A stretch of 64,000 nucleotides of DNA from Nitrosopumilus sp. (GCA_965205425.1 CBDBGZ010000009.1:320001-384000), one strand, 5' to 3'; shown: positions 5,439 through 43,916, counted from the stretch's first letter. Made by a program: numbers and translations. Notes: generated by a model not told the origin, from the letters alone.

Positions 5439-5540
5439 TGGCGCCGGGAGGGAGATTTGAACTCCCGTTCCCTTGCGAGAACGCGCTTTATGGTTAAACA
5501 ATTTCCAGGCGCGCGCCCTACCAGGCTAGGCGACCCCGGC
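5439..5540 (-). tRNA. tRNA-Ser(GGA) with ~15-nt intron at 37/38, CCA encoded
   Basis: GCCGGGG/CCCGGC acceptor stem, CGCGC-CTGGAA[intron]A-GCGCG anticodon arm, long variable arm, GTTCAAATC T-loop. Confidence 0.93.
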
Positions 5541-34940: not shown

Positions 34941-35013
34941 AACCTATTTCATAACCTGTCATAATAATAACCTATCTCTTGACCTAATGTATAAATAACC
35001 TAAATGATAACCT
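34939..35013. promoter_or_regulatory. Phased ATAACCT repeat array in the divergent abrB/transposase promoter region
   Basis: ATAACCT at 34939, 34951, 34967, 34995, 35007 plus variant TTGACCT at 34979. Confidence 0.7.
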
Positions 35014-35018
35014 ATTCT

Positions 35019-36143
35019 ATGAATCAAAGAGAAATTAGAGGAAAACAAATAGCAGAAAAACAAAATCAAATTATCAAAATAGATGAAACTCATTACAAAG
35101 TAAATTCTCAAAGTAGAAACAAACAACATGACGTTATCTCTTTAGAATCTGGTTGGAGTTGTAGTTGTGAGGATAGATTTTTCAGGAAAACTTGTTGTAA
35201 GCACATTCATGCAGTAGAAATTTCATTAAATATTCATCAAAAGGTAAAAGATGATGTTATAATTTCAGAAGTGGAAATTGATTGTTGTAAATACTGTAAA
35301 TCACAAAATATTGTAAAACGTGGCATACGAAAAAACAAGAGTGGCAATATCCAAGTGTTTAGTTGTAAGAACTGCACACGTAAGTTCTCAATTAACTTAG
35401 GCTTTGAGGGAATGAGAGCAACACCTGATCAAATCACAATGGCAATGAATCTATACTTTAACGGTGAATCATCAAGGAAGGTAAAACAATCCTTGGTTCT
35501 TACTGGTGTTAAAATATCTCATGTTACCATTCAAAACTGGATAAAGAAATACGTCTCACTAATGGAAAAATACCTTTACAAGATAACTCCACAAGTAGGT
35601 GAGCAATGGAGAACAGACGAATTATATCTAAAAATCAAGGGTGATAAAAAATACCTCTTTGCAATGCTAGATTCAGAGACTAGATTTTGGCTGTCTCAAA
35701 TGGTATCAGAACATAAGGGAAATGATGATGTATCTCCAATGTTTGCAGATGCCAAAAAGAAAGCAAAGAAAGTTCCAACTACACTAATTTCTGATGGAGC
35801 TGCAAACTTTCATCATGCTTGGAAAGAACAATACAAAGCCAAAAACTTTCTACATAAAAATACAGAACATCACAGGCACATACACCTATCAGGCGATATG
35901 AACAACAACCAGATGGAATCCTTTAACTCAAACACTCTAAGAGCAAGAGAGAAGGTCGTTAGAGGAATCAAAAAAGATGATTCCTCGATAATCAAGGGTA
36001 TGCAAATTCATCATAATTTCATAAGACCACATCAAGGGTTGAATGGAGATACACCAGCAGACAGATCAGGCATTATTATACAAGGAGATAATAAATGGAA
36101 AACCATAATTCAAAATGCTAGTAACGCCACGAGAGGGATTTGA
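35019..36143 (+). CDS. IS6/IS240-type DDE transposase with N-terminal SWIM and Zn-ribbon domains
   Basis: CSC...CKHIHAV (SWIM); CKYC...CKNC; WRTDE, ISDG, NNNQMES. Confidence 0.88.
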   Translation: MNQREIRGKQIAEKQNQIIKIDETHYKVNSQSRNKQHDVISLESGWSCSCEDRFFRKTCCKHIHAVEISLNIHQKVKDDVIISEVEIDCCKYCKSQNIVKRGIRKNKSGNIQVFSCKNCTRKFSINLGFEGMRATPDQITMAMNLYFNGESSRKVKQSLVLTGVKISHVTIQNWIKKYVSLMEKYLYKITPQVGEQWRTDELYLKIKGDKKYLFAMLDSETRFWLSQMVSEHKGNDDVSPMFADAKKKAKKVPTTLISDGAANFHHAWKEQYKAKNFLHKNTEHHRHIHLSGDMNNNQMESFNSNTLRAREKVVRGIKKDDSSIIKGMQIHHNFIRPHQGLNGDTPADRSGIIIQGDNKWKTIIQNASNATRGI

Positions 36144-36490: not shown

Positions 36491-37093
36491 CTAGAAATGA
36501 TTCTCAAAGAATACTTCATCCAAAGATAACTGACCACCACGTTCAGCAGCATCTGCAGATCTCTTTCCAACTACAACCATCATTACAATCATGTGGTCTT
36601 TTGGCAGATTAATTATATCAGCTAGTTCATCATATTCAAAACCAACCATAGGACAAGAATCAAGACCCATCTGACTAGCTGTTAACATGATTGTTTGAGC
36701 TGCAAATCCACAAGAGCGCATTGCCTCATCTCGTCTATTCTCAGGGCTGTTTTCATATTTTCGGGCAAGAGAGTTTTTCACTAGTTCTTGTTTTTCAGGA
36801 GTATTATTTCTCCAGTATCGTAATGGTTCTTCTTTCCATGCATTAAGATTTCCACATAGTACTACAACTAGAGAGCCGTCTTTTGGTTGGGCTTGATCAC
36901 GGGCGGCTTTGGATATTTTATCTTTTACATCTTGATCAGTAACATAGACAAATCTCCAATTTTGTTGATTATAGCTAGTTGGAGATAGTATGGTTAACTC
37001 TTTTAGTAATTTAATATCTTCAGGTGGCATTTTGTATGATGAATCAAATTTCTTTATTGCACGTCTAGTTTTGATAGCATCAAAGGTATCCAT
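36491..37093 (-). CDS. Nitroreductase family protein
   Basis: RRAIKKF, SPTSYNQQNW, GLDSCPMVGF. Confidence 0.92.
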   Translation of the reverse strand: MDTFDAIKTRRAIKKFDSSYKMPPEDIKLLKELTILSPTSYNQQNWRFVYVTDQDVKDKISKAARDQAQPKDGSLVVVLCGNLNAWKEEPLRYWRNNTPEKQELVKNSLARKYENSPENRRDEAMRSCGFAAQTIMLTASQMGLDSCPMVGFEYDELADIINLPKDHMIVMMVVVGKRSADAAERGGQLSLDEVFFENHF

Positions 37094-37127
37094 GAAATAA
37101 CAAAAAAATCCCCAAATTTAATTGAAT

Positions 37128-37271
37128 GAAAAGGTAACTGAGCTTAAGATCAGCACTAAGAGTGCTGATGACAGCTCACCACTTAAGATCAGTAACTGAA
37201 AAGTTATCTGATGACAGCAATTTATCTTAAGGTCTGAAACGATTGTACTCAGACGAAAGACTCACCTTTTC
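37128..37271 (-). ncRNA. Candidate structured ncRNA: three similar hairpins inside a closing stem
   Basis: 10-bp closing stem, three hairpins with [G/U]UC / CUUA internal loops; G-U pairs and an upstream TTAAATA favour the minus strand. Confidence 0.55.
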
Positions 37272-37361
37272 TGAATTAGTTATGTGATTTTCTTATTTAA
37301 CGGGTACTACTTTTTCCTACTAATGGAAATCAACACTAGCCACTAGTGTAGTTTCCAGATA

Positions 37362-38411
37362 GTGTATTTATTAGGCCAAAAGGGATCGCAGAATATCTTG
37401 AAGATTGCAGTAATGGGAATGGGAGTAGCAGGATCATATCTTATGGCCAGACTAAAAAACTCTGAGCACGAAGTTACTGGATATGAGAGAATGAAGGAAG
37501 AAAATCATGATTCTATTTGTGCATGGGGGACAATCAAACCAATTCTAACAGATTTTTGTAAAAAGACTGGAAGAGATTTTGATGATTTTCTAATTCACGA
37601 CGGTAAGGAAATGCATGTGAAAATGAATGACGATGTGAAATTTGATATCGGACTCAAAGGATTATGCACATATGACAAACTAGCACTAATCAAGGATTTC
37701 ATTAAAGATTCTAAAATTATTTACGGCAATCCACCATCAATAGAGGAATTAGAAAAAGAGTACGACATGATAGTTGATTGTACTGGATTTCACAGAGTTT
37801 ATCTCCCAAAATTAGAAGAAGATTTCTTTTTGCCAACATACGAGTACAAAGTAGAATATGAAGACAAGGTTCCATATGATGACTTTTACATTGAACCATT
37901 TCCTGGCATGTCAGGCTATTTCTGGTATTTCCCATTAGGTGAGAAATGGGCACATATCGGAGCGGGTGATTACAATAAACAACACATCAAGGCAACTGAT
38001 GATTTTCTAAAAAAACATGGAGGTAAAATCCTGAAAACTAAAGGTAGACCAATTAGATTAGCAACACCTGATAGATGCAAACCATACTATTCAGGAAAAG
38101 TAGTAGGTGTTGGAGAATCAATTGGAACAGTATACGCATTGTTAGGTGAAGGAATCATTCCATCAATGCAATGTGTAGAGATTTTCTTAGAAAACATGAA
38201 TGATTTCAAAGCATATGAGAAAGCAGTAGAGAAACACTACAAGGTTTATGCTAAAGTGTTTAATTTTGTTCGAGCAAAAATCCACAAAGATTTCAGCTTC
38301 TTCAAAGCATTGCCAGATTTCATTGCAATATTTCTTTACATGAAAAAACATGAAGACAGATTTGGAATGAATATCAAGATTGCAGATTTGATGAAAGTTG
38401 CAAAAGCTTAA
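37362..38411 (+). CDS. FAD-dependent oxidoreductase, geranylgeranyl-reductase-like (true start probably ~37398)
   Basis: GMGVAG, GYFWYFP, GESIG, GEGI. Confidence 0.8.
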   Translation: MYLLGQKGSQNILKIAVMGMGVAGSYLMARLKNSEHEVTGYERMKEENHDSICAWGTIKPILTDFCKKTGRDFDDFLIHDGKEMHVKMNDDVKFDIGLKGLCTYDKLALIKDFIKDSKIIYGNPPSIEELEKEYDMIVDCTGFHRVYLPKLEEDFFLPTYEYKVEYEDKVPYDDFYIEPFPGMSGYFWYFPLGEKWAHIGAGDYNKQHIKATDDFLKKHGGKILKTKGRPIRLATPDRCKPYYSGKVVGVGESIGTVYALLGEGIIPSMQCVEIFLENMNDFKAYEKAVEKHYKVYAKVFNFVRAKIHKDFSFFKALPDFIAIFLYMKKHEDRFGMNIKIADLMKVAKA

Positions 38412-43828: not shown

Positions 43829-43916
43829 AGCCCGATAGTCTAGTGGTCAAGGATTCTGCCCTCTGGATCTCAAGAGTGGATAGGCGGGGACGGCAGTTCG
43901 AATCTGCCTCGGGCTA
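43829..43916 (+). tRNA. tRNA-Gln(CTG) with ~15-nt intron at 37/38
   Basis: AGCCCGA/TCGGGCT acceptor, CTGCC-CTCTGG[intron]A-GGCGG, GTTCGAATC. Confidence 0.92.

What the first reader, a model, noticed from the sequence alone, without database searches (positions are those of the whole stretch)
37128..37271. Candidate novel ncRNA: three hairpins repeating the same internal loop
Seen on the minus strand: closing stem GAAAAGGUGA/UUACCUUUUC around three hairpins, UCU-UUC-GUCUGA..UCAGAC-CUUA-AGA, UUGCU-GUC-AUCAG..CUGAU-CUUA-AGUGG and GAGCU-GUC-AUCAGCACU..AGUGCUGAU-CUUA-AGCUC. Stems vary with pairing preserved while the 3x4 internal loop is kept. A TTAAATA box lies ~25 bp upstream. On the plus strand the loops read UAAG/GAN, resembling the UAA/GAN motif. 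Inference: a multivalent protein-binding sRNA or a leader of the nitroreductase gene. It does not match an RNA class I recognise.
Basis: partly seen in the sequence, partly recalled or inferred. Interest (0 to 1): 0.75.

Follow-up and report, generated by a model that had tools for sequence, protein, structure and literature searches.

The report
New modular small RNA of Nitrosopumilaceae
This is a conserved small non-coding RNA with its own predicted promoter, built from three copies of a 40-base hairpin with an almost invariant internal loop; it belongs to an RNA family found here only in ammonia-oxidising archaea, matches no catalogued RNA family, and probably binds a protein, though its function is unknown.

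Summary
Window 37128-37271 (minus strand) folds into a closing stem plus three hairpins. Each hairpin has the internal loop GUC/CUUA (UUC in hairpin 1).

- **Stability and covariation:** the fold is far more stable than shuffles (z -5.5). In 19 genomes 95.8% of cells pair, and 19 of 43 pairs show compensatory changes.
- **Strand:** G-U versus A-C counts (66 vs 11), a conserved TATA box 23 nt upstream and a T-run downstream all point to the minus strand.
- **Not a nitroreductase leader:** that gene has its own conserved TATA box 22 nt before its ATG. The RNA occurs without the gene, the gene occurs without the RNA, and in other genera the RNA sits in unrelated contexts.
- **New finding:** the 40-nt hairpin is a module. 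It also occurs as single- and two-module loci with their own TATA box, often followed by a T-run. This genome has two more, and relatives gave 1-12 matches.
- **Distribution:** 54 of 80 genomes of the window's family, 0 of 70 in eleven sister families.
- **Databases:** no Rfam match, and my literature searches found nothing.

Most likely it is a multivalent protein-binding RNA. The partner is unknown and expression is untested.

The parts
37301..37320 (-). Upstream promoter element (GTAGGAAAAAGTAGTACCCG) directly 5' of the TATA box. It is related to the GTAGAAATYATCAGTA element found in front of single-module loci.
   Evidence: The composite pattern (element plus TATA) occurs only twice in the 2.2-Mb genome: here and upstream of the single module at G000:C9:651776-651816. 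The pattern was derived from these two sites, so this is partly circular. The element is conserved in the 19-genome upstream alignment. A related element lies upstream of 26 of 76 module loci on the sense side and 0 of 76 on the antisense side.
37294..37300 (-). TATA box (TTAAATA) of the small RNA gene.
   Evidence: GTTAAATA is conserved in 18 of 19 aligned genomes; one has ATTAAACA. The distance to the 5' end of the closing stem is nearly fixed. The nitroreductase gene and the reductase-like gene show the same TATA-to-start spacing.
37128..37271 (-). Body of the small RNA, about 144 nt: a closing stem (37271-37262 with 37137-37128) enclosing three hairpin modules.
   Evidence: Fold z -5.53. 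43 pairs, 95.8% paired, 19 pairs with compensatory changes. 151.8 bits with model R1. Both ends are inferred from the promoter and the T-run, not measured.
37223..37262 (-). Module 1, with internal loop UUC/CUUA (GUC in most relatives) and the apical motif GUAC..CGUU.
   Evidence: Model R2 hit, 45.5 bits.
37179..37220 (-). Module 2, with internal loop GUC/CUUA and the apical motif AUAAC..GUUAC. Its outer stem has three G-U pairs.
   Evidence: Model R2 hit, 44.2 bits. The plus-strand fold cannot form its outer stem.
37140..37177 (-). Module 3, with internal loop GUC/CUUA and a longer upper stem that lacks the apical motif.
   Evidence: Model R2 hit, 44.7 bits. Its upper stem covaries (columns 115/132 and 116/131).
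37121..37134 (-). T-rich stretch (CCTTTTCATTCAAT) that overlaps the 3' strand of the closing stem; the presumed archaeal oligo-T terminator.
   Evidence: Relatives have CTTTTC/TTTTTT/TTTTTTT followed by ATT at this place. G060 has T8. A T-run lies within 45 nt downstream of 44 of 76 module loci on the sense side, against 13 of 76 on the antisense side. Its function as a terminator is inferred.
37115..37121 (-). Boundary feature that is not part of the RNA: the TATA box (TTAAATT) of the nitroreductase gene, 22 nt before its ATG at 37093.
   Evidence: ATTAAATTT or TTTATTTT is conserved at a fixed distance from the ATG in most of the 19 genomes (G079 departs: ATTACTTTAG, with a shorter spacer). 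The gene at 36491-37093 matches PF00881 with 108 bits.

Best explanation
Window 37128-37271 (minus strand) is a stand-alone gene for a structured non-coding RNA of about 145 nt.

**Transcription.** It is probably transcribed from its own TATA box (37300-37294), which is preceded by a family-specific upstream element. Transcription probably ends at the T-run that overlaps the closing stem.

**Architecture.** The RNA is three tandem copies of a 40-nt hairpin module held together by a closing stem. Each module consists of:
- a lower stem ending in an invariant U-A pair;
- an asymmetric internal loop, 5'-GUC-3' opposite 5'-CUUA-3', that is almost invariant;
- a covarying upper stem;
- in modules 1 and 2, a conserved apical motif (..UAC..CGUU).

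The same module is also encoded singly or in pairs at other loci with their own TATA box (often followed by a T-run), in this genome and in relatives. The module, not the three-hairpin RNA, is therefore the functional unit.

**Proposed mechanism.** Each internal loop, with its flanking pairs, is the docking site for one copy of an RNA-binding protein that has not been identified. The three-module RNA would then act as a multivalent platform or sponge, and the single-module RNAs as monovalent ones. The shared promoter element would control how much of this RNA is made.

**Shown here:** the structure, its conservation, the strand, independence from the neighbouring genes, modularity, and restriction to one archaeal family.
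**Inferred:** transcription start and end, protein binding, and any sponge or scaffold role.
For: **Structure**
- Fold z -5.53.
- 19-genome alignment: 95.8% paired, 19 of 43 pairs with double changes, 0 of 500 shuffles reach the observed values.
- Module alignment of 83 hairpins: 94.3% paired, 12 of 13 pairs with double changes, 264 such cells against 80 expected.

**Strand**
- 66 G-U cells against 11 A-C cells; 65 against 13 in modules.
- TATA-like hexamers start 35-39 nt upstream of the module core in 35 of 76 loci on the sense side and 0 of 76 on the antisense side.
- T-runs downstream: 44 of 76 against 13 of 76.

**Own gene**
- TATA box conserved 23 nt before the closing stem.
- A second conserved TATA box lies 22 nt before the nitroreductase ATG.
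- The RNA is present without the nitroreductase gene in G060, and in unrelated contexts in genera g21, g27, g22 and g24.
- In G110 the nitroreductase and reductase-like genes are neighbours without the RNA.

**Module as unit**
- Model R2 finds 5 modules in this genome at 40-45.5 bits; the next hit scores 17.9.
- 68 of 151 family genomes have matches.
- Loop columns are nearly invariant: G 71/83, U 83/83, C 82/83 opposite C 82/83, U 83/83, U 82/83, A 83/83. The stems vary. This is the pattern expected of a specific recognition surface.

**Shared promoter element:**

**Lineage restriction:** 54 of 80 genomes in the family, 0 of 70 in 11 other families of the class.
Against: - There is no expression data. 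No RNA run was on record for this stretch, so transcription, both ends and abundance are all inferred.
- No partner protein was found.
  - Neighbouring genes differ between loci.
  - Four neighbours have no Pfam family.
  - The one conserved neighbour I tested is also present in genera that lack the module.
- No module was found in an obvious mRNA UTR regulon. A pure 'sponge' would therefore have no known competing targets.
- An invariant small internal loop could equally serve as a ligand or metal pocket, or as a tertiary contact.
- The sequences are related, so the shuffle controls overstate significance, although the slid controls do not.
- In the g1 and g4 genomes the position next to the nitroreductase gene is conserved. 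That could still reflect some local coupling.
Confidence: 0.5

Rival explanations
1. Trans-acting sensor RNA. Each GUC/CUUA loop would be a small pocket for a metal ion or small molecule, possibly a quasi-continuous helix with G-U, U-U and C-C mismatches and a bulged A. Three modules would give cooperative or high-capacity binding.
For: - The seven loop nucleotides are almost invariant while everything around them covaries.
- Tandem repetition of small aptamer-like units is known from tandem riboswitches. That point is established knowledge, not tested here.
- No protein partner emerged from the gene context.
Against: - No expression platform or regulated downstream gene: in many cases the loci are followed by a T-run (44 of 76), and the neighbours differ.
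- No similarity to any riboswitch family in Rfam.
- A 3x4 loop is small for a selective pocket.
Confidence: 0.12
2. Base-pairing regulatory RNA. The hairpins would be stability or chaperone-binding elements, and regulation would occur by antisense pairing. One example would be the single-module locus that overlaps the 3' end of a convergent gene.
For: In this genome the single module at G000:C9:219451-219491 overlaps the stop region of a convergent 136-aa ORF. The same arrangement recurs in several genera.
Against: - The conserved nucleotides sit in structured loops of 3-4 nt, with no long single-stranded conserved seed.
- The three-module RNA and the class-A loci overlap no gene.
- Stems covary freely, which would destroy any fixed target complementarity.
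Confidence: 0.1
3. Local cis effect on the nitroreductase gene. The structured RNA would be a long leader (riboswitch or attenuator), or its transcription and termination right on top of the nitroreductase promoter would modulate that promoter.
For: - Same strand and immediately adjacent in 19 of 19 first-round genomes, and in further g4 genomes.
- The terminator T-run ends only about 7-13 nt before the nitroreductase TATA box.
Against: - The gene has its own conserved TATA box at leaderless spacing.
- G060 keeps the RNA and a T8 run but has no nitroreductase gene downstream. G110 keeps the gene pair without the RNA.
- Genera g21, g27, g22 and g24 have the RNA elsewhere, often with the next gene on the opposite strand.
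- Single modules lie in unrelated places.
Confidence: 0.08
4. Precursor that is cut into single hairpin units, as in repeat-RNA antitoxins of type III toxin-antitoxin systems or CRISPR-like processing. The single-module loci would correspond to the mature form.
For: Tandem modules are separated by linkers of only 1-4 nt, and single-module genes exist.
Against: - The three modules are not identical repeats; only the core is shared.
- The positions are orthologous across genera: module 1 resembles module 1.
- A covarying closing stem encloses all three, which argues for an intact three-module RNA.
- No conserved nuclease or toxin gene lies next to them.
Confidence: 0.05
5. DNA-level palindromic repeat (REP/BIME- or MITE-like element, or a transcription-factor operator array) with no function as RNA.
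For: - The module is an imperfect palindrome present several times per genome.
- It is expanded in genus g4, where two genomes gave 11 and 12 matches and paralogous units share ~170 nt of downstream sequence.
Against: - Strong strand asymmetry: G-U over A-C, TATA upstream and T-run downstream on one strand only.
- Conserved synteny over genera and only 5 modules in this genome.
- Palindrome arms covary instead of being conserved, which is the opposite of an operator.
- No hits in viral contigs.
Confidence: 0.05

Closest known systems
CsrB/RsmZ-type protein-sequestering small RNAs of bacteria
   Same: A stand-alone small RNA that displays several copies of one short conserved motif on a series of hairpins. 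The copy number of the unit varies between paralogues and species. This comparison rests on established knowledge of that family, not on a test here.
   Different: - No sequence or structural homology: there is no GGA loop motif and no Rfam hit.
- The conserved element here is an asymmetric internal loop, not an apical loop.
- The organism is an archaeon.
- No CsrA-like partner or competing mRNA sites were identified.
UAA/GAN internal loop motif
   Same: The antisense (plus) strand reads UAAG opposite GAC, which matches the letters of that motif (sequence).
   Different: - The strand supported by G-U pairs, promoter and terminator is the minus strand, which reads GUC opposite CUUA.
- On that strand the 'GAN' side is GUC, so the motif's defining A is missing.
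- The motif definition is recalled, not taken from a call.
Archaeal C/D box and H/ACA guide sRNAs
   Same: Small size, own promoters, hairpin-rich, and probably protein-bound.
   Different: - The sense strand has no C (RUGAUGA) or D (CUGA) box pair and no tandem G-A kink-turn.
- There is no large pseudouridylation pocket and no ACA box.
- C/D models score only 12.7-18.8 bits against gathering scores of 37-103.
Tandem riboswitches / cis-regulatory leaders
   Same: Repeated similar structured domains directly upstream of a gene on the same strand.
   Different: - A terminator and a second promoter lie between the RNA and the gene.
- RNA and gene occur without each other.
- Single modules occur away from any consistent gene family.
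- No Rfam riboswitch match.
REP/BIME palindromic repeats and MITEs
   Same: Imperfect palindromes that recur in intergenic regions, sometimes in tandem.
   Different: - Only 5 modules in this genome.
- Conserved orthologous positions across genera.
- Dedicated strand-specific promoters.
- Invariant asymmetric loop with covarying stems.

Membership tests
Any Rfam 15 family | Score at or above the family's gathering threshold | tested here: not met
   Whole window: only two tRNAs. In 36900-37500 at E up to 10, the best hit is 24.2 bits against a gathering score of 50, an unrelated lncRNA model. The single-module loci L073 and L074 gave nothing.
C/D box sRNA | C box RUGAUGA and D box CUGA forming a kink-turn with tandem G-A pairs, on the transcribed strand | tested here: not met
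   The sense strand has no RUGAUGA. UGAUGA appears only on the antisense strand, and there its register conflicts with the covarying stem. C/D models score 12.7-18.8 bits, below their gathering scores. Box definitions are recalled.
H/ACA sRNA | Large two-sided pseudouridylation pocket, kink-turn or k-loop in the upper stem, ACA box about 14 nt 3' of the pocket | tested here: not met
   The internal loop is only 3x4 nt and invariant rather than guide-like. There is no consistent ACA after the hairpins and no G-A tandem. The feature list is recalled.
Riboswitch / cis leader of the nitroreductase gene | Lies in the 5' UTR of the regulated gene and always accompanies it | tested here: not met
   A conserved TATA box lies 22 nt before the ATG, downstream of the structure. 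The RNA occurs without the gene (G060, g21, g27, g22, g24), and the gene without the RNA (G110). The actual 5' end of the mRNA was not measured.
CsrB/RsmZ-like protein sponge (functional kind) | Several copies of one protein-binding motif on one RNA | tested here: met
   Three modules with the same nearly invariant loop in one RNA. Two-module and one-module paralogues exist.
CsrB/RsmZ-like protein sponge (functional kind) | A cognate RNA-binding protein, and mRNA targets that carry the same motif | not testable with these tools
   No partner emerged from gene neighbourhoods. All five modules in this genome lie in sRNA-like loci. Pull-down experiments are needed.
UAA/GAN internal loop motif | UAA on one strand opposite GAN on the other, in the transcribed RNA | tested here: not met
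   The letters fit only the antisense strand. The motif definition is recalled.
Kink-turn | Three-nucleotide bulge followed by tandem sheared G-A / A-G pairs | tested here: not met
   The loop columns hold no purine tandem (G/U/C opposite C/U/U/A). The definition is recalled.
REP/BIME or MITE | Many dispersed copies at non-orthologous sites, no own promoter; terminal inverted repeats and target duplications for MITEs | tested here: not met
   One full-length copy and 5 modules in 2.2 Mb. Orthologous positions are conserved across genera. A strand-specific TATA box lies at a fixed distance. In genus g4 the units are expanded, which was only partly examined.
Type III toxin-antitoxin repeat RNA | Near-identical tandem repeats followed by an endoribonuclease toxin gene | tested here: not met
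   The modules share only the core. The downstream gene is a nitroreductase-family protein (PF00881), or an unrelated gene, or none within ~780 nt (G060).
Mimic of a hairpin in the organism's own rRNA | The same module present as a local hairpin in 16S or 23S rRNA | tested here: not met
   Model R2 with filters off on the rRNA operon (L120) gives a best score of 7.3 bits. Loops formed by distant rRNA strands cannot be seen this way.

The most novel reading that the evidence does not exclude
Nitrosopumilaceae possess a lineage-specific ribonucleoprotein regulatory system that has not been described.
- It would be a small gene family of hairpin RNAs, with one, two or three modules, under a dedicated promoter element made of tandem GAAATYATCAGTA-like repeats.
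- The invariant GUC/CUUA loops would capture a specific protein.
- The three-module RNA would then be the first CsrB-like multivalent sequestering RNA known in Archaea.
- It would sit in organisms that dominate marine nitrification, and its level would be set by an environmental signal acting on the shared promoter element.
Probability: 0.3. Interest if true: 0.85.

Novelty: categorically new. Interest (0 to 1): 0.72.

Why it matters
Ammonia-oxidising archaea of this family are among the most abundant microbes in the ocean and drive nitrification, yet almost nothing is known about their RNA-based regulation.

This finding provides:
- a structured RNA family with very strong comparative support;
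- a clear modular architecture and a nearly invariant candidate recognition loop;
- a family-specific promoter element;
- a sharp phylogenetic boundary.

Together these make a concrete, testable entry point: pull-downs, loop mutants and promoter-binding assays in cultured Nitrosopumilus.

If the modules bind a protein, this would be a new post-transcriptional control system in Archaea. If they bind a ligand or metal, it would be a new class of trans-acting sensor RNA. Even at minimum, two covariance-model-ready alignments (three-module RNA and single module) could be added to RNA family databases to improve annotation of these genomes.

Tried and rejected
**Expression and literature**
- RNA evidence: the look-up of sequencing runs listed no RNA holder, only six DNA or contig holders. 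Expression could not be tested and read laying was not used.
- Seven literature searches found no description of this RNA: Nitrosopumilus with non-coding RNA, ncRNA, psRNA, small RNAs/intergenic/secondary structure, and RNA motif/Rfam; ammonia-oxidizing archaea with TSS/sRNA; Thaumarchaeota with structured RNA.
  - In PMC5069720 I read passages only. They concern a euryarchaeal ncRNA and give no thaumarchaeal RNA of this kind.
  - In PMC13475601 I read passages only. The ncRNAs mentioned there are SRP and RNase P RNA.
- Earlier scan notes held nothing by place, by sequence or by words.

**Known RNA classes considered**
- RNase P RNA: it lies elsewhere in the genome, at 184 bits.
- rRNA mimicry: no local hairpin like the module in the rRNA operon.
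- Kink-turn, C/D, H/ACA, bulge-helix-bulge, hammerhead-like (CUGAUGA on the antisense strand) and GNRA-receptor readings were checked by eye. All were dropped because the required nucleotides are missing on the supported strand, or because the register conflicts with the covarying stems.

**Partner search**
- Neighbouring genes of module loci fall into several unrelated synteny classes.
- Four neighbours have no Pfam family.
- The conserved convergent 136-aa ORF was tested as a co-distributed partner. It is found in 119 of 151 family genomes, including genera without the module (g5 4/4, g11 9/9, g18 9/9, g24 8/9, g26 9/9), so it was rejected.

**Other**
- Viral origin: two exact module patterns gave 0 hits in viral contigs.
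- The loose pattern scan over 201 genomes was not enriched over its reversed control. It served only to spot true hairpins by eye; the covariance model replaced it.

Full report
**1.
On the minus strand the closing stem GAAAAGGUGA (37271-37262) pairs with UUACCUUUUC (37137-37128). It encloses three hairpins at 37261-37224, 37220-37179 and 37177-37140.

Each hairpin has a lower stem, a 3x4 internal loop and an upper stem. The loop is UUC/CUUA in the first hairpin and GUC/CUUA in the other two.

The minimum-free-energy fold of 37120-37280 reproduces this. It gives -53.6 kcal/mol against -31.2 +/- 4.1 for 200 dinucleotide shuffles (z -5.53), and none of the shuffles folds as well.

The plus strand also folds well (-49.0, z -4.50), because hairpins are near-palindromes. 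It cannot form the outer stem of hairpin 2, which has three G-U pairs on the minus strand.

**2. Not a known RNA family, and single-copy as a whole.**
- Rfam 15 at gathering thresholds finds only two tRNAs in the window.
- A permissive scan of 36900-37500 gives 11 sub-threshold chance hits. The best is 24.2 bits against a gathering score of 50, and C/D models reach 12.7-18.8 bits.
- BLAST of the element against the window's own 2.2-Mb genome finds only itself plus five 14-19-nt chance matches.

**3. Conservation and covariation.**
BLAST over 201 genomes of the same family found near-full-length matches in 18 other genomes. I aligned the 19 sequences (A1).

RNAalifold recovers the closing stem and the three two-part hairpins. 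Counting on that structure gives:
- 43 pairs and 815 cells, of which 95.8% are standard pairs;
- 19 pairs with changes on both sides, in 57 cells;
- 0 of 500 column shuffles reaching any of the five measures;
- pairing of 32-44%, with 4-7 covarying pairs, when the 3' partners are slid by 1-3 columns.

The sequences are related, so the shuffle figures are not probabilities. The slid control keeps relatedness and is equally clear.

**4. Strand.**
In A1 there are 66 G-U cells and only 11 A-C cells. 781 of 815 cells pair on the minus-sense strand against 726 of 815 on the other. In the module alignment the figures are 65 G-U against 13 A-C.

Promoter and terminator signals provide independent support. 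I used 76 module loci fetched by an exact pattern from public genomes and oriented them by the module.

| Signal | Sense side | Antisense side |
|---|---|---|
| TATA-like hexamer starting 35-39 nt upstream of the module core | 35 of 76 | 0 of 76 |
| T-run within 45 nt downstream | 44 of 76 | 13 of 76 |

**5. An own gene, not a leader.**
The 19-genome flank alignments show three conserved A/T boxes with the same spacing to what they precede:
- GTTAAATA, 23 nt before the closing stem;
- ATTAAATTT, 22 nt before the nitroreductase ATG (37093);
- on the other strand, TATTTATTAG, about 24 nt before the TTG (37398) that opens the conserved LKIAVMGMG N-terminus of the divergent reductase-like gene.

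Genes here therefore look leaderless. The structured RNA has its own promoter, and the nitroreductase has another one downstream of the RNA.

Between them lies the T-rich 3' strand of the closing stem (CCUUUUCAUU here, up to T7-T8 in relatives). I take this as the archaeal oligo-T terminator; that is an inference.

Synteny supports the same conclusion:
- The order reductase-like gene, RNA, nitroreductase holds in 19 of 19 first-round loci.
- G060 (same genus) has the RNA with a T8 run and no nitroreductase gene.
- G110 (same genus, GC-rich) has the two protein genes as neighbours but no RNA.
- In genera g21, g27, g22 and g24 the RNA lies among unrelated genes, often with the next gene on the opposite strand.

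The downstream protein is an ordinary nitroreductase-family protein (PF00881, 108 bits). The upstream one matches geranylgeranyl-reductase models only weakly and below their cut-offs.

**6. The hairpin is a module.**
A covariance model of the whole RNA (R1) searched over 151 family genomes gave two kinds of hit:
- strong full-length hits (50-154 bits) in 22 genomes, including this one;
- a tail of 25-41-bit hits that turned out to be loci with two hairpins or one hairpin of the same kind.

I extracted 83 hairpins and aligned them (A3). The common structure has three parts:
- P1, a 5-bp lower stem;
- the loop GUC/CUUA;
- P2, a 6-bp upper stem, followed by a 2-bp apical helix closing a variable loop.

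On this structure 94.3% of cells pair. 12 of 13 pairs show double changes, in 264 cells against 80 +/- 9 expected.

The loop is almost invariant: G 71/83, U 83/83, C 82/83 opposite C 82/83, U 83/83, U 82/83, A 83/83. The closing U-A pair is kept in 82/83. Many modules also keep A-C...C-G-U-U in the apical part. Module 3 of the three-module RNAs lacks this.

**7. Where modules occur.**
*In this genome.* The module model (R2) finds exactly five modules at 40-45.5 bits; the next hit scores 17.9. Three are in the window. The other two are single modules on the same contig, outside the window:
- G000:C9:651776-651816. It has a TATA box about 30 nt upstream and lies 50 nt before a 127-aa ORF that has its own TATA-like box.
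- G000:C9:219451-219491. It is followed by a T-run and overlaps the end of a convergent 136-aa ORF.

*Across the family.* 68 of 151 genomes have matches at E<=0.001, with 1-12 matches per genome.
- Matches came from genera g1 (8/9), g3, g4, g15, g17, g20, g21, g22, g23, g27 and g10, and rarely from g6, g11 and g24.
- None were found in those searched of g2, g5, g7-g9, g12-g14, g16, g18, g19, g25 and g26.

*At class level.* 54 of 80 genomes of the family have matches, against 0 of 70 in eleven other families.

*In public genomes.* An exact-pattern scan returned at least 118 loci, of which 80 were listed. Their record titles read Nitrosopumilus, Nitrosarchaeum, Nitrosomaritimum, Nitrosotenuis, Nitrosotalea, or Nitrosopumilaceae/Thaumarchaeota. 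Three contigs are labelled Nitrososphaeraceae and one short contig comes from a bin labelled Phycisphaerae. Two such patterns gave nothing in viral contigs.

*Anatomy of single-module loci.* They have an extended P1 (for example AUUG...CAAU), their own TATA box and often a T-run. These look like genes for RNAs of roughly 50-70 nt.

**8. A shared promoter element.**
Many single-module loci carry, directly upstream of the TATA box, CGTAGAAATCATCAGTATGATC-like sequence. In several loci this appears as two tandem ~14-nt repeats.

The window's RNA has the related GTAGGAAAAAGTAGTACCCG. In a subclade of the same genus the equivalent sequence is GTAGAAATTATCAGTACC.

A composite pattern (element plus TATA) occurs only twice in this genome, in front of the three-module RNA and of the module at C9:651776. 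The pattern was written from these two sites, so that count is partly circular. On the 76 public loci a looser version is found upstream in 26 and on the antisense side in 0.

This suggests common transcriptional control of the family. The regulator is unknown.

**9. What it most likely does.**
The pattern is an invariant asymmetric loop with invariant flanking pairs, freely covarying stems, and repetition in 1, 2 or 3 copies. That is what a specific recognition site for a protein looks like. The three-module RNA would present three such sites on one junction.

My estimates are:

| Claim | Probability |
|---|---|
| Independent structured RNA gene | about 0.9 |
| Protein binding, given that | about 0.55 |
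| Combined | about 0.5 |

I could not identify the partner.
- Neighbours of module loci fall into several unrelated classes.
- Four neighbours have no Pfam family.
- The conserved convergent ORF is also present in module-free genera (119 of 151 genomes).
- The module is not a copy of a local hairpin of the organism's rRNA (best 7.3 bits).
- RNase P RNA is elsewhere.

The rivals are a ligand or metal pocket, antisense action, local interference with the nitroreductase promoter, a processed precursor, and a DNA-level repeat. They are listed with their evidence in the Rival explanations section.

**10. Comparison with known families.**
- *Works like:* in architecture, the closest functional analogy is the CsrB/RsmZ kind of multivalent protein-binding RNA.
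- *Membership:* none. The defining features of C/D, H/ACA, kink-turn, riboswitch leader, REP/MITE and type III antitoxin RNA were each checked and not met.

**11. Limits.**
- No RNA-seq run was available for this organism, so transcription, ends and abundance are inferred from sequence signals.
- Genome samples were drawn evenly from larger groups. 'Not found' means not found in those searched.
- The tool's 'matches' are not exact copy numbers.
- The tallies include genomes flagged as unpublished (G092, G093; also G077). No individual claim rests on them.
- The literature searches cover only the open-access library. A description in a subscription journal cannot be excluded.

**12. Verdict.**
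This is a real, strongly supported and apparently undescribed structured RNA family, restricted to Nitrosopumilaceae among the genomes searched. The flagged element is its three-module member. Its function is open, and protein binding is the leading hypothesis.

Noticed in passing
G000:C9:651776-651816 (-) and G000:C9:219451-219491 (-), same contig as the window but outside it (loci L073, L074): Two further single-module hairpin loci in the window's own genome (41.5 and 40 bits with R2). The first shares the upstream promoter element with the window's RNA. The second overlaps the 3' end of a convergent 136-aa ORF that has no Pfam family.
   Followed up: partly
Loci L109-L119 (genomes G073 and G030, genus g4): In this genus R2 gave 11-12 matches per genome in these two genomes. 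Several of these units share the promoter, the module and about 170 nt of conserved downstream sequence. In 4 of the 5 units examined, that stretch includes a possible small hydrophobic ORF (for example MRNIDSVLNVFCFVVFSKICSVL in L117). The units lie next to paralogous ORFs of about 150 and about 250-300 aa; the two tested (L117) have no Pfam family. This could be a paralogous gene cassette or a mobile unit.
   Followed up: partly
Loci L058, L060, L061, L081, L092, L097, L103 (genus g22): Here the single module is directly followed by a second conserved hairpin (GGUUCAGRCCCCGAGGGGAAACUCAAGUCUGAACY) and then a T-run. The locus lies between an EF-2-like gene and a small gene (both labels by eye from their sequence; the latter perhaps TFB-like). 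This is a composite small RNA of unknown kind.
   Followed up: no
window 37115-37121, 37294-37300 (minus strand) and about 37364-37373 (plus strand): Three promoters in this 300-nt region show the same TATA-to-start spacing of about 22-24 nt. This implies leaderless mRNAs for the nitroreductase gene and the reductase-like gene. The latter probably starts at the TTG at 37398, not at the GTG at 37362 that opens the longest ORF.
   Followed up: partly
window 35004-36143 (+): A 379-aa ORF with a DDE transposase domain (PF13610 DDE_Tnp_IS240, 56 bits; rve, 38 bits) and a cysteine-rich N-terminus. It is an IS element about 350 nt beyond the 3' end of the nitroreductase gene, and is not present at this place in the relatives examined.
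   Followed up: no
window 43829-43916 (+) and 5442-5540 (-): Two tRNA matches of 88 and 99 nt, longer than a standard tRNA. They probably contain introns.
   Followed up: no
L192 (public contig from a bin titled Phycisphaerae bacterium, 5.3 kb): Two modules about 450 nt apart on a short contig assigned to a bacterial bin. This is most likely a mis-binned thaumarchaeal contig rather than a bacterial occurrence.
   Followed up: no
Loci L241, L242 (genomes G279, G110, same genus g1): Two complete, GC-richer genomes of the same genus gave no module match to either model. They would be the natural contrast for finding co-lost protein genes.
   Followed up: partly
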